Shown here piece after piece: positions 3,845 through 59,952 of a DNA stretch of 64,000 bases. The position numbers were made by a program, and so were the translations under genes. The stretch is from a virus (Duplodnaviria; Heunggongvirae; Uroviricota; Caudoviricetes): the IMG/VR virus record IMGVR_UViG_3300031414_000001, positions 96,001 through 160,000 of that record. One strand, 5' to 3'. Under the pieces are notes generated by a model. That model did no database searches and was not told the origin of the DNA. It saw nothing but the letters and a program-made list of their open reading frames with translations. The first letter of the stretch is position 1; each line of letters begins with the position of its first letter.

Positions 3845-3888
3845 TATATCCTCCAAAAGATATACAAAAATTTATTTTGGTATGTCCT

Positions 3889-3896
3889 TATTTATA
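3889..3896 (-). promoter_or_regulatory. Late promoter TATAAATA
   Basis: Exact consensus upstream of the core protein gene. Confidence 0.7.
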
Positions 3897-3951
3897 GCCT
3901 TAAAAAATACCATTTTCAAAAAAGCTTAAAAACGGTACTTTTTGCCATAAA

Positions 3952-4185
3952 TTACATCATCCCACCACCAGATTGATCATCAGAAGGTGCAGCGGCATAA
4001 ACCACTGCTACCACTGCGTCACGTTTAGCAGCTTCGTTCTTTTTAAATTCCCTGTACTTTCTCAAGTTGTTGAGAATTTGTAATGTCAATTTAGGTTTAC
4101 GAGTATCGGTAATTTTATATACGGTCTGATCATCTTCAGGGTCGTACATAGAATCATCTTTAGCTTCAAAAATTTCGTCCAACAT
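3952..4185 (-). CDS. Small prohead core protein (gp67/gp68 position)
   Basis: 77 aa downstream of portal; MLDEIFEA begins with a processing-like motif; own ATAAATA at 4234-4240. Confidence 0.5.
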   Translation of the reverse strand: MLDEIFEAKDDSMYDPEDDQTVYKITDTRKPKLTLQILNNLRKYREFKKNEAAKRDAVVAVVYAAAPSDDQSGGGMM

Positions 4186-4245
4186 AACCTATATCCTTAA
4201 TTATTTTAATCGTTCATATGAACGAATCATAACTATTTATTACTG

Positions 4246-8228: not shown

Positions 8229-9083
8229 ATGAATAAGATGAACCCTTTATCCAAGTACACTAAAGTAGAAGTACTTTACACTAAACTTGTGAGTAATAAT
8301 GTTATTCCTTACCCATCTGGTGTTTTGAATAACGAAACTGTTGAATGCGGTATTTGTGCTCGTTCAGCACGTGATGAACTAATGTTCAACAATCCAGACG
8401 CATTGATTAATGGTGAAGCAGTTGCTAGTGTTATTGAAAACTGTGTTCCTAATATCGCTGATGCTCGTAAACTTTTTGTACCAGATGTAGAATTGCTACT
8501 TATTGGTATTAAAATCGCAACAAAAGAAACTTCATATAATATTGAAGTAGAATGTCCGAACTGTAATCATCATGGTGCGTTTGAACGTAACCTAGAAGCA
8601 CTACTAGCAAGTGCTGAATTACTAGAAGAACAACCTGAACTGCTACTTGAAGAAGTTGGTGGTTTACTATTGAAATTTAAGCCTCATACTTGGGCTGAAC
8701 ATTCTGATTTTAGTCAGAAGATGTTTATTGAACAAAAGAAAGCTCGTTCATTGGAACAAGTTGATTTGAGTGATGAAGAAAAGATGAAGCACTTCAGTGC
8801 TATTTTTGAAGTTATGACTCAATTGAGTTTTGATATGACAGTCGCTAATATCGACTATATTGAAACCGCTGATGGGGATAAAGTAAATGACCGTGCGTTT
8901 ATCGCAGAATGGTTAGGGCAACAGCCAGCATTTATTCTTCGTCAAATTCGTGACAAAGCTGATTTTATTAACAATACTGGTGTTAGTCATGAAATGGAAG
9001 TTGGATGTTCTGAATGTGGCCATGAATGGACACTAGAGAATCTACAATTTGATCCTAGCAGTTTTTTCGTACAAGGCTTCTAA
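8229..9083 (+). CDS. Baseplate hub/tail assembly chaperone, gp26-like
   Basis: ARDELMFNNPDALINGEAV..VIENCVP, DVELLLIGIKIAT, two CxxC pairs (CPNC, CSEC); start at ATG 8229 after GGAG. Confidence 0.7.
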   Translation: MNKMNPLSKYTKVEVLYTKLVSNNVIPYPSGVLNNETVECGICARSARDELMFNNPDALINGEAVASVIENCVPNIADARKLFVPDVELLLIGIKIATKETSYNIEVECPNCNHHGAFERNLEALLASAELLEEQPELLLEEVGGLLLKFKPHTWAEHSDFSQKMFIEQKKARSLEQVDLSDEEKMKHFSAIFEVMTQLSFDMTVANIDYIETADGDKVNDRAFIAEWLGQQPAFILRQIRDKADFINNTGVSHEMEVGCSECGHEWTLENLQFDPSSFFVQGF

Positions 9084-9280
9084 TGGCTGATGCTCAAGAG
9101 ACAATGCAAGAAATAGCTGACCTTCGTTTGAACTGTGAAGAAATTAAGAATGGGTTAATGGAGGTGTCTGTGTACATATCCAATACTAGCTATGAAATGC
9201 TCTTGAATATGCCTGTAACAGATCGTGACCTGATGGTGAAGCAATATAATAAAAAGGTCAAAAAAGAAAACAAACAATAA
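9083..9280 (+). CDS. gp51-like hub assembly protein; possibly also the -1 frameshift extension of the upstream ORF
   Basis: SYEMLLNMPVTDRDLMVK resembles gp51/tail-chaperone C-terminal motif; TAATG overlap with upstream ORF. Confidence 0.55.
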   Translation: MADAQETMQEIADLRLNCEEIKNGLMEVSVYISNTSYEMLLNMPVTDRDLMVKQYNKKVKKENKQ

Positions 9281-9312
9281 AAAATTAACCAGCCTTAGTG
9301 CTGGTTTTTTTT
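9281..9312. terminator. Intrinsic terminator, probably bidirectional
   Basis: AACCAGC-cttagt-GCTGGTT followed by a T-run on +, A-run upstream. Confidence 0.75.
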
Positions 9313-9970
9313 GTGTCTGAATTTTCTGTACTGTTTGAGATTTGCCATACTTCGTATGTCAAAGAATTTTCGTTGTTCTGTACTTGCTTCGCTGCGTACA
9401 GAACAACTCAATTCAGTTCTATTTGATACGTTTAACACGATTTATACTGACGAGATTTGGGGAGTTTATCATCCCCCGCAAGGGGAATGATGTAAAAAAA
9501 GTACTAATTAAAGTACTCAATTCTGACGATGATAGTCGTCGTTTAATTGTATCGTAAATTTCTATTTTTCAATAGAACGTAAGCGGGTTGATCTGTTTCT
9601 CACTATTACGGTCATATTCAACGGTCGAGGGCTTACCTCACTCAGTACTAAGTCTATACAATCAAACTCAGCACCTATTCTTCTGGAATTTTAGACGGAT
9701 CAATATTGTATAAAATATGACCGCAAAATTCTTCTTCAGAAAAATTCCCTTAGCTATTTGGTAGGGGCGATTCCTATATATCTATCGAGGAAGTTCTATC
9801 AGCTTAGTGAACTTCTTTATAGTGCCGTATTGCCGTGGGTGGTACAAACTATGCCATCTCCTAACGGGTTTCTTCTGCACTGCGAACTGCTTGAACTTCT
9901 CATTGTGCCAATTACTTTTCATCGGCGACTGTTTATTTGTCTACGCTCACGCATAGTCAAGCAGGGTTGT
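9313..9970 (-). ncRNA. Candidate large structured ncRNA or transcription-primed origin
   Basis: No credible ORF; many hairpins and long-range helices; flanked by a promoter at 9977-10005 (-) and a terminator at 9281-9312. Strand taken from the promoter only. Confidence 0.45.
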
Positions 9971-9976
9971 CCTATC

Positions 9977-10005
9977 ATTATACCAGATTTTTTTAGTTCG
10001 TTCCA
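9977..10005 (-). promoter_or_regulatory. Phage early/middle-type promoter TGGAACG-N11-TCTGGTATAAT
   Basis: One of five exactly spaced copies in the window. Confidence 0.75.
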
Positions 10006-10048
10006 CGATAATTGTAAATACTGTAGAAGAACTTTTTGAGGAACTATA

Positions 10049-10531
10049 ATGAAAAGGGAAAGGTTAAAAAACTCTAACGAGGCTGCCAAATATAGGCAAG
10101 AATTACTTAAAAAACAAAAAGGCTTAGATCCAATCACTAAAGAGAAAGTAACCGATCCAGTACTTGACCATAATCATAAAGGTGAACAAGAATGCCGTGC
10201 TGTTCTAGATAGAACAGTAAACTCATTCGAAGGTAAAGTACAAAATGCGTTCGATAGATACATTAAACATTTAACTGATAAGAATCTACCTACAGTTTTA
10301 CGAAATCTAGCAGATTACTATGAACAGGATTATTCTGAAACAAAAATACATCATACAGCACTAACTATTGATGTTAAAAAGTTCAAAGCATTACCAGCAG
10401 CACAACAATGTTCAATTCTTGAATCATTTGACGTTGTACCTGAGTCCAATTCTGCTAAACGAGCAAATCAAGCTCGTAAATTAATTAAAAGTGGTCAATT
10501 AGATATGACACAAATAAAAAAAGGAGCCTAA
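10049..10531 (+). CDS. gp49: Recombination endonuclease VII-like (gp49) Holliday junction resolvase
   Basis: VLDHNH...CRAVLDRTVNSFEGKV matches gp49 LDHDH...VRGLLCxxCNxxEG; GTAAATA late-like box at 10014-10020. Confidence 0.75.
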   Translation: MKRERLKNSNEAAKYRQELLKKQKGLDPITKEKVTDPVLDHNHKGEQECRAVLDRTVNSFEGKVQNAFDRYIKHLTDKNLPTVLRNLADYYEQDYSETKIHHTALTIDVKKFKALPAAQQCSILESFDVVPESNSAKRANQARKLIKSGQLDMTQIKKGA

Positions 10532-14624: not shown

Positions 14625-14653
14625 ATTATACCACATTTTTAATTTTCGTTCCA
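14625..14653 (-). promoter_or_regulatory. Promoter TGGAACG-N11-TGTGGTATAAT for gp55-47-46
   Basis: Consensus copy ~50 nt upstream of gp55. Confidence 0.8.
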
Positions 14654-14692
14654 CATAATAAATACAGGATAACATTTTCACGGAGAACGTAT

Positions 14693-37760: not shown

Positions 37761-37789
37761 ATTATAGCACAAAATTTTTCGTCGTTCCA
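37761..37789 (-). promoter_or_regulatory. Promoter TGGAACG-N11-TGTGCTATAAT for clpA
   Basis: Consensus copy 35 nt upstream of the clpA ATG. Confidence 0.8.
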
Positions 37790-37830
37790 AAAATAAATAC
37801 GATATAAATTTCTTTTTGGAGATTAAGAAT

Positions 37831-56587: not shown

Positions 56588-56616
56588 ATTATACCACAAA
56601 AACGTGGTACGTTCCA
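56588..56616 (-). promoter_or_regulatory. Promoter TGGAACG-N11-TGTGGTATAAT for the td operon
   Basis: Consensus copy. Confidence 0.8.
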
Positions 56617-56668
56617 AATATTTGTAAGGTCGCCATCCTTGACGACCTTCTATTTAGTATTCTGCTTC

Positions 56669-59551: not shown

Positions 59552-59580
59552 ATTATACCACAAATTTACTTTCCGTTTCA
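59552..59580 (-). promoter_or_regulatory. Promoter TGAAACG-N11-TGTGGTATAAT
   Basis: Near-consensus copy with identical spacing. Confidence 0.7.
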
Positions 59581-59952
59581 CAAAAATGCGGCAAACAACT
59601 TAGAAAAATCATCTCTACAAAATGTGAGTTGTGCTATCACTAAGTCATCTGATAAGTACAAAGTATCTCCGACTATATAGTACGGAGTGGTGCAAATACG
59701 GTCTAAAGATGTGTAAACGTTCGAATTACGATCCTGCTTCTTAAGCGGAATAGCAAGGAACTCATATAAGGAATTGTCTTCGCATATCTGAAACCCTAAC
59801 TTACTCAACCGCAAGCCACCACCAGTTCTGTAATTATCAAAAATGGATAACAGTATCATTCTATCATTGAGTTCAGAATCGAATTCATAAACTTCTTTAA
59901 TAGCATTTAATACACCATATTGAATTTCAGTACTGTTGGTTCTTGGGACCAT
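59578..59952 (-). CDS. Hypothetical protein
   Basis: ORF at end of late operon; GGGLRLSKLG motif. Confidence 0.6.
   Translation of the reverse strand: MVPRTNSTEIQYGVLNAIKEVYEFDSELNDRMILLSIFDNYRTGGGLRLSKLGFQICEDNSLYEFLAIPLKKQDRNSNVYTSLDRICTTPYYIVGDTLYLSDDLVIAQLTFCRDDFSKLFAAFL

What the first reader, a model, noticed from the sequence alone, without database searches (positions are those of the whole stretch)
9313..10005. ~650-nt highly structured locus without a credible ORF, with its own promoter and terminator: candidate large phage ncRNA or R-loop origin
Seen: this is by far the largest intergenic gap in a densely packed window. A consensus TGGAACG-N11-TCTGGTATAAT promoter (9977-10005, -) points into it with no credible gene downstream, and it ends at the terminator 9281-9312. 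Helices include GTTGTTCTGTAC/GTACAGAACAAC (12 bp, ~9372-9407), TTTGcCATAC/GTATGtCAAA, ATCAT-CCCC-GCAA-GGGG-ATGAT, GACGA/TCGTC and TTCTATT/AATAGAA. A long-range CGGTCATATT/AATATGACCG helix (9609-9723) encloses TATACAAT/ATTGTATA; GAAGTTC/GAACTTC and CTGCTTGA/TCAAGCAG (9887-9964) also pair. On the - strand two loops are C-GAA-G, one being GCGAAGC, a known ultrastable DNA mini-hairpin. Established: T4 origins ori(uvsY) and ori(34) are middle promoters that make persistent R-loops. Inference: either an undescribed large structured RNA or a transcript-primed origin beside EndoVII and gp46/47. G-U wobble polarity is mixed, so the functional strand or molecule is unresolved.
Basis: partly seen in the sequence, partly recalled or inferred. 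Interest (0 to 1): 0.85.

Follow-up and report, generated by a model that had tools for sequence, protein, structure and literature searches.

The report
Multi-copy jumbo-phage origin-primer-like RNA
The gene-free gap encodes a knotted RNA of about 520 bases that this giant phage keeps in five evenly spread, same-direction copies and that small host islands have borrowed; its anatomy suggests it folds back onto its own DNA to start genome copying, which has not yet been shown by experiment.

Summary
Real. The gap (9281-10048) of this GAP32/Rak2-like jumbo phage holds a minus-strand non-coding RNA, about 9970-9447, absent from Rfam. Across 93 non-redundant copies the promoter is conserved, about 14 helices covary (three pseudoknots), and G-U outnumbers A-C 443:37 on the minus strand, which settles strand and molecule. 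The genome has five co-oriented, evenly spaced copies. The 3' end carries two boxes that flank a G-run hairpin and change together (93/93) with no RNA partner, then an A+T-rich stretch and DNA-type C(GNA)G mini-hairpins. Integrase islands of six enterobacterial genera carry the element and no recognisable Rep or primase. A model built only from these copies also hits freshwater-phage elements at the same gene position, one subfamily of which carries the orphan Rfam motif Polynucleobacter-1. Best reading (0.55): a ColE1-RNA-II-like primer for R-loop origins, not homologous to ColE1; rival: a ROOL/GOLLD-like trans RNA (0.25). No expression or replication data. The scan reported both this family and the freshwater twin-box family before on other DNA; the link between them was tested here.

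The parts
9977..10005 (-). Phage promoter, TG(G/A)AAC upstream box plus extended -10 TGnTATAAT; start of transcription expected near 9970
   Evidence: conserved in syntenic loci, in all five paralogues and in island copies
9546..9970 (-). Structured RNA body, about 425 nt, with three pseudoknots
   Evidence: covariation; z -3.1 minus vs -0.65 plus; GNRA loops 30 sense vs 6 antisense
9887..9964 (-). 5' domain: leader 9964-9957 pairs with loop 9894-9887 (pseudoknot 1); GUGA-capped hairpin 9956-9941; hairpin with conserved GAAAAnGUA loop about 9929-9907
9790..9881 (-). Middle domain: helices 9881-9877/9825-9821, 9867-9864/9836-9833, 9815-9811/9794-9790
9644..9675 (-). Long hairpin whose loop 9662-9656 pairs with 9552-9546 (pseudoknot 2; 639 WC of 650 cells)
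9553..9626 (-). Most conserved core: P1 9622-9618/9591-9587 (pseudoknot 3), P0 9610-9606/9557-9553, P2 9603-9599/9583-9579, P3 9577-9574/9563-9560; shared with freshwater myophage elements
   Evidence: 98% of cells paired, 14 of 19 pairs with double changes; CM hits
9523..9533 (-). Box R1 (ATCATCGTCAG)
   Evidence: changes together with R2:
9494..9517 (-). Optional terminator-like hairpin plus U7, present in 39 of 93 copies
9473..9486 (-). Pyrimidine/G-run hairpin; G5-G6 invariant, partner side variable with G-U
9447..9456 (-). Box R2 (ATCTCGTCAG), 16-20 nt after the G-run; end of the conserved core
9408..9446 (-). A+T-rich stretch after R2 (family mean 75% A+T vs 59% in the body), candidate unwinding element
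9341..9407 (-). Two hairpins (9407-9372, 9363-9341) with DNA-type C-GAA-G triloops, GCGAAGC at 9392-9386 and ACGAAGT at 9355-9349; candidate single-strand DNA signals on the displaced strand
   Evidence: (69 sense vs 0 antisense; 7.5 per kb vs 0.7 background)
9287..9313 (+). Intrinsic terminator of the convergent baseplate operon; not part of the element
8229..9280 (+). Flank: baseplate hub (PHROG 150, PF12322) and small gp51-like gene 9083-9280; same convergent neighbour in 60 of 100 freshwater loci
10049..10531 (+). Flank: endonuclease VII (PHROG 423), divergent from the RNA

Best explanation
A cis-acting primer RNA of a transcript-primed replication origin, working like ColE1 RNA II but unrelated in sequence. 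Shown: a conserved phage promoter reads the minus strand into a multiply pseudoknotted RNA followed by R1, a G-run hairpin, R2, an A+T-rich stretch and C(GNA)G hairpins; five co-oriented, evenly spaced copies per genome; copies on Rep-less integrative islands. Inferred: the folded RNA presents box R1 (and the G-run) to the template strand at R2 behind RNA polymerase and nucleates a persistent R-loop over the A+T-rich stretch; the displaced minus strand folds the mini-hairpins and receives helicase/primase; the processed RNA 3' end primes leftward leading-strand synthesis, each origin covering 60-85 kb to the next. The optional hairpin+U run would tune how many transcripts reach R2. Islands would use the element to be copied by the infecting jumbo phage.
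For: Five copies, all minus strand; spacing CV 0.08-0.17, P about 1e-4 to 2e-3 in each of seven genomes (genomes are related, positions only partly syntenic); 121Q four copies, P 0.03. R1 and R2 identical at the variable T/C site in 93/93 and in the 5-nt core in 93/93, with all 6 and all 4 tree changes joint (control pairs: 99th percentile 0.6, here 1.0); they differ between copies of one genome, so one shared protein does not explain it; no third RNA partner (best pairing MI 0.15 vs 0.68); spacing R1-R2 free (49-88 nt here, every value 39-46 in freshwater), G-run to R2 fixed. The same twin boxes covary in the freshwater branch (13/13 distinct pairs). ColE1 itself has an upstream and a downstream G6 in RNA sense (record; pairing of the upstream one with the template is from memory, Masukata and Tomizawa 1990). 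RNA-type loops in the body, DNA-type loops downstream. Islands: integrase, element, cI/Ner-like switch, defence cargo, no Rep/primase found. Precedents: ColE1 550-nt RNA II (PMC5043065); several R-loop origins in T4 (PMC3016281).
Against: No experiment shows an R-loop, a primer or replication. Base-composition skew does not switch at the copies and gives no clear leading-strand signal. RaK2 has three unevenly spaced copies (P 0.22) and two complete freshwater genomes of 329-347 kb have one. A terminator-like hairpin lies between R1 and R2 in 39/93 copies. One box position mismatches in about 40% of copies. In the freshwater branch the C(GNA)G loops lie on both strands equally and there is no G-run. 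T4 R-loop origins need no elaborate RNA, so the size of the fold is not required by priming as such.
Confidence: 0.55

Rival explanations
1. A trans-acting ornate RNA (ROOL/GOLLD/OLE-like scaffold, cage or protein sponge); extra copies raise dose and the twin boxes bind one ligand.
For: Size about 520 nt, three pseudoknots, many invariant unpaired residues; own promoter and a terminator-like hairpin in 39/93 copies that would release a free RNA of about 475 nt; a loop module that moves between two variable stems.
Against: Does not explain even spacing and strict co-orientation, within-copy agreement of R1 and R2, conservation of R2 and the G-run downstream of the terminator-like hairpin, or the DNA-type hairpins. 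No Rfam hit to ROOL or GOLLD even at E 10.
Confidence: 0.25
2. A mobile RNA element or nuclease partner (intron-like ribozyme, HEARO/omega-RNA-like guide) spread by the neighbouring endonucleases.
For: A PD-(D/E)XK-type homing endonuclease gene sits just 5' in Munch and fENko-Kae01, an HNH gene just 3' in one contig (34, 92), a GIY-YIG-like gene 5' in freshwater loci; copies are dispersed and present on islands.
Against: The nucleases are of unrelated families and optional; four of five copies here have none; the element never interrupts a gene, has no target duplication, keeps one orientation and an ancient syntenic position; no group I/II intron, HEARO or RNase P hit.
Confidence: 0.08
3. A cis DNA/RNA site for chromosome handling other than initiation (anchoring, segregation, recombination or packaging pause), with the boxes as protein sites kept alike by local conversion.
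For: Even spacing and co-orientation fit any distributed cis site; the boxes occur almost only at the five copies; RaK2 has its own box variant in all three copies.
Against: Fixed differences between R1 and R2 persist over great distances while variable sites agree, which conversion would erase; no fixed helical phasing between the boxes; the RNA-level covariation would be unexplained.
Confidence: 0.1

Closest known systems
Polynucleobacter-1 RNA motif (Rfam RF01718; Weinberg et al. 2010, PMC2864571)
   Same: RF01718 is the 5' 140 nt of one freshwater-phage subfamily (105 bits) whose 3' part has the same pseudoknot core and twin boxes; that subfamily links to the other freshwater elements (E 1e-23), which a CM built only from Rak2-like copies hits at 20-47 bits; same position convergent on the baseplate hub; also has a host-chromosome copy.
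   Different: The window does not hit RF01718 and a CM of its 5' domain does not hit RF01718-bearing loci; the motif was described as short, of unknown function and not found in purified phages; freshwater genomes have one copy, no G-run.
ColE1 origin: RNA II pre-primer (PMC5043065)
   Same: About 500-550-nt folded transcript from its own promoter, G-run near the 3' end, a sequence repeated upstream and downstream in RNA sense, hairpin signals downstream, no initiator gene on the small elements that carry it.
   Different: No homology by HMM or CM; three pseudoknots; multi-copy in a 370-kb lytic phage; no antisense RNA I or Rop identified.
T4 oriF (uvsY) and oriG (34) (PMC3016281)
   Same: Several origins per genome, phage promoter, transcript-primed one-directional start, A+T-rich element downstream.
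   Different: T4 origins are about 100 bp, share no sequence and need no specific RNA; here a long conserved fold and twin boxes are shared by all copies.
ROOL, GOLLD, OLE large ornate RNAs
   Same: Size, dense covarying structure, phage association, unknown function.
   Different: No Rfam match; not in tRNA clusters (no tRNA in the window); evenly spaced co-oriented copies and twin boxes.
PA5oct ncRNA004 (PMC7318152)
   Same: 619-nt RNA-seq-defined ncRNA of a related jumbo phage, 0.02-0.08% of phage reads; has two co-oriented paralogues; two of three fit a loose descriptor of the core and end in a G-run hairpin.
   Different: Not hit by the HMM or CM: analogy only, homology unproven.

Membership tests
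Polynucleobacter-1 RNA (RF01718) | CM score at or above 37 bits | tested here: not met
   no hit in the window at E 10 or in ten paralogues at E 1
Polynucleobacter-1 RNA (RF01718) | Homologous 5' domain | tested here: not met
   CM of the window's 5' domain finds no RF01718-bearing locus; only a likeness of topology by eye
Full-length element behind Polynucleobacter-1 (uncatalogued twin-box superfamily) | Pseudoknot core P0-P3 | tested here: met
   CM hits 20-47 bits, full length, right site and strand (115-117); compensatory P1 variants
Full-length element behind Polynucleobacter-1 (uncatalogued twin-box superfamily) | Two boxes flanking a strong hairpin that change together | tested here: met
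Full-length element behind Polynucleobacter-1 (uncatalogued twin-box superfamily) | Convergent on the baseplate hub / gp51-like genes | tested here: met
   window; 60 of 100 freshwater loci
ColE1-type origin | Sequence or structure homology to RNA II | tested here: not met
ColE1-type origin | Persistent RNA:DNA hybrid processed to a primer | not testable with these tools
   needs experiment
ColE1-type origin | Antisense RNA I over the 5' end | not tested
   no plus-strand promoter of the phage class near the locus; not searched further
T4 oriF/oriG | Phage promoter followed by an A+T-rich unwinding element | tested here: inconclusive
   promoter and A+T-rich stretch present but 520 nt apart; temporal class of the promoter unknown
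ROOL / GOLLD / OLE / HEARO / RNase P / group I-II introns | Rfam model hit | tested here: not met
PICI-like satellite (island copies) | Integrase, divergent regulators, primase/Rep-ori module, helper-dependent packaging | tested here: inconclusive
   integrase and cI/Ner-like pair present, primase/Rep not found, mobilisation untested

The most novel reading that the evidence does not exclude
A large, unrecognised class of self-priming origin RNAs is shared by large T4-related myophages from enterobacterial jumbo phages to uncultured freshwater phages (explaining the orphan Polynucleobacter-1 motif), is multiplied into evenly spaced origins in GAP32-like phages, and is hijacked by Rep-less defence-carrying satellite islands of the hosts.
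Probability: 0.45. Interest if true: 0.92.

Novelty: new variant of a known kind. Interest (0 to 1): 0.78.

Why it matters
I found no paper that locates a replication origin or describes this RNA in Rak2/GAP32-like jumbo phages, although many are cultured (121Q, PBECO4, GAP32, CBB, BF, RaK2, Munch). The element gives five precise, testable sites per genome, a sharp genetic prediction (R1/R2 compensatory rescue), a possible function for an orphan Rfam motif, and a candidate class of satellites that parasitise jumbo phages without their own replication protein. If the origin model fails, it remains one of the largest uncatalogued pseudoknotted phage RNAs available in laboratory phage-host pairs.

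Tried and rejected
Rfam at gathering and E-value thresholds: nothing for the window or paralogues. tRNA/tmRNA: none. Small ORFs on either strand: not conserved. RNase P-like words (AGUGCA, UAGAUAGA, ACCCGCUU in the same order) were noticed, but the P4-type pairing cannot form and no model hits: rejected. Homology to ColE1 RNA II, suggested by short shared words: not supported. Plasmid collection: no real hit. Strand skew as origin evidence: inconclusive. Sequencing runs: no RNA holder listed on record; four runs laid were contigs, probably DNA, uninformative. Distant baseplate-hub relatives at 27-30% identity had no element beside the hub. A 5' leader/riboswitch role: rejected because this copy has no downstream gene on its strand. 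First genome contigs pattern found nothing; two Verrucomicrobia/metagenome pattern hits were chance.

Full report
Setting. The window is part of a 371-kb GAP32/Rak2-like jumbo phage, 96% identical in this stretch to Erwinia phage Kaldavass. The gap 9281-10048 lies between a baseplate hub plus gp51-like gene (plus strand, convergent on the element) and endonuclease VII, gp46, gp47 and the late sigma factor. It is the largest internal gap. Rfam, ARAGORN and ORF conservation give nothing.

Is it real. The stretch is found in about 60 phage records at 66-96% identity, unannotated or covered by inconsistent short ORF calls. From phage, metagenome and genome searches I gathered 93 non-redundant copies. 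The strongest covarying column pairs are almost all Watson-Crick and fall into about 14 helices, three of them pseudoknots. For the core, 98% of cells pair, 14 of 19 pairs show double changes, and no shuffle or slid register comes near (the shuffle does not correct for kinship). Over 66 supported pairs, G-U occurs 443 times and A-C 37 times on the minus strand; GNRA loops are 30 to 6 in favour of it; the body folds at z -3.1 on minus and -0.65 on plus. The promoter precedes every copy whose 5' flank was held and could be read, apart from a few with variant boxes. So the body is a minus-strand RNA from about 9970.

Copy number and layout. The genome has five copies, near 21.5, 106.0, 187.1, 251.5 and 311.7 kb, all on the minus strand, the main transcribed strand. 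GAP32, BF, Munch, Hallingskeid and two IMG/VR genomes also have five; spacing is more even than random in each (CV 0.08-0.17, P 1e-4 to 2e-3; not independent genomes). 121Q has four, RaK2 three, uneven, and the related phiKp_21 lacks the copy at this site. The idea of testing spacing, islands and a ColE1 analogy came from earlier scan notes; I tested each.

The 3' end. After the core come box R1 (9533-9523), an optional hairpin with U-run (39/93), a pyrimidine/G-run hairpin with invariant G5-6, and box R2 (9456-9447) 16-20 nt later. R1 and R2 are direct repeats with a fixed one-base difference, yet their variable sites agree within each copy: T/C in 93/93, the 5-nt core in 93/93 across five variants, every inferred change on the tree joint. 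Copies in one genome differ from each other, and no column of the RNA pairs with these sites. The simplest constraint is pairing of RNA R1 with the template strand of R2 (inference). Downstream the DNA is 75% A+T and then forms hairpins with C(GNA)G triloops, 69 on the sense strand and none on the other; that such loops are exceptionally stable in DNA rather than RNA is from memory (Hirao and colleagues). The sense strand is the one an R-loop would displace.

Host islands. One copy each occurs in E. coli (10.7-kb island at ffs with att duplication, 39% GC), Buttiauxella, Silvania, Citrobacter, Enterobacter and Serratia. In most the order is integrase (tyrosine or large serine), element with its phage-type promoter, then in four a cI-like gene (with a Ner-like partner), shared unknown genes, a resolvase and variable defence cargo (nSTAND3, GmrSD, DarT with ADP-ribosylglycohydrolase and UvrD-like helicase, DUF488/DUF4326/dual-OB). 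No primase or initiator was recognised among the proteins scanned. The element sits where a satellite's replication module would be (inference).

Wider family. A 16-mer recalled from freshwater phage contigs returned 120 or more loci, 100 of them one family. A covariance model built only from Rak2-like cores hits them full length at 20-47 bits (E 1e-8 to 0.07). They keep P0-P3 with compensatory changes, have their own twin boxes that agree within each copy, a strong hairpin between them and GAA-type hairpins after, and 60 of 100 lie convergent on a baseplate hub homologue. The 5' part of one subfamily is Rfam Polynucleobacter-1; the published alignment shows the same core and boxes in unaligned flanks and a chromosomal copy (PMC2864571). 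The window's own 5' domain does not match that motif, so it is a relative through the core, not a member. Two complete freshwater genomes have a single copy. Earlier scan notes describe this freshwater twin-box family (seen after my own tests) and, separately, the Rak2-like family. PA5oct ncRNA004, defined by RNA-seq at low abundance (PMC7318152), has two co-oriented paralogues and a similar layout but is not hit by my models; it is an analogue at best.

Mechanism. Most likely a pre-primer for R-loop origins, like ColE1 RNA II (550-nt transcript, persistent hybrid, RNase H, displaced strand loads helicase; PMC5043065) and in the spirit of T4's multiple transcript-primed origins (PMC3016281), with no homology to ColE1. 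Shown: RNA structure, strand, promoter conservation, copy layout, twin-box agreement, island context. Inferred: hybrid formation, priming, direction, satellite use. Against: no skew signal, uneven or single copies in some relatives, a terminator-like hairpin before R2 in many copies, no expression data. Confidence 0.55; trans-acting ornate RNA 0.25; other cis role 0.10; mobile or nuclease-guide RNA 0.08.

Verdict. A real, uncatalogued, deeply conserved large RNA element; new variant of a known kind if it is an RNA-primed origin; interest 0.78.

Noticed in passing
whole genome G000 and RaK2: The hexamer AGTACT is about 9.5-fold over-represented (1166 vs 122 expected; RaK2 937 vs 117) while GCGC is wholly absent and many 6-bp palindromes have zero counts; not so in PA5oct or freshwater genomes. 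The E. coli island has 11 AGTACT within 1.5 kb around its copy.
   Followed up: partly
L004:152-1108 (Munch), L018 (fENko-Kae01): A 318-aa zinc-repeat, PD-(D/E)XK-type homing endonuclease gene (PHROG 559) inserted just upstream; the RNA promoter lies inside its 3' end.
   Followed up: partly
L009:1661-2275: A 204-aa HNH endonuclease gene (PHROG 953) inserted between the last GAA hairpin and the terminator.
   Followed up: partly
window 9712-9690 and paralogues: A loop module like ACAATATAGATCCGTC occurs in either of two variable stems (20 copies in one, 13 in the other, 8 in both) and nowhere else in the genome by the pattern used: candidate protein-binding module.
   Followed up: partly
L090 and L091 (RaK2 191.6 kb and 280 kb): The two copies share long identical stretches over their 3' half and downstream module but differ in the 5' half, suggesting recent conversion between copies.
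   Followed up: no
L360, L361, L362 (PA5oct 246.1, 76.0, 12.9 kb): PA5oct ncRNA004 has two unannotated, co-oriented paralogues of 700-1100 nt.
   Followed up: partly
L452-L456, L057: A family of 9-14-kb low-GC integrative islands with a shared 286-aa membrane protein and 118-138-aa secreted protein and swapped defence cargo; a DarT, ADP-ribosylglycohydrolase, UvrD-like helicase trio occurs in two of them.
   Followed up: partly
L157, L163, L172, L191, L194: A divergent, unnamed jumbo phage lineage in gut metagenomes has several copies with a different 5' domain and the box variant CGAAG; one copy is again beside the baseplate hub.
   Followed up: partly
window 14625-14660, 37761-37795, 56588-56620, 59552-59585 (minus): Further promoters of the same class precede the late-sigma/gp47/gp46 operon, an ATP-dependent protease, a cluster ending in thymidylate synthase and an ATPase, pointing to a pre-late class.
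   Followed up: partly
window 3857-4245: Second-largest internal gap holds a 77-aa ORF at 3952-4185 (minus) between portal and scaffold-like genes.
   Followed up: no
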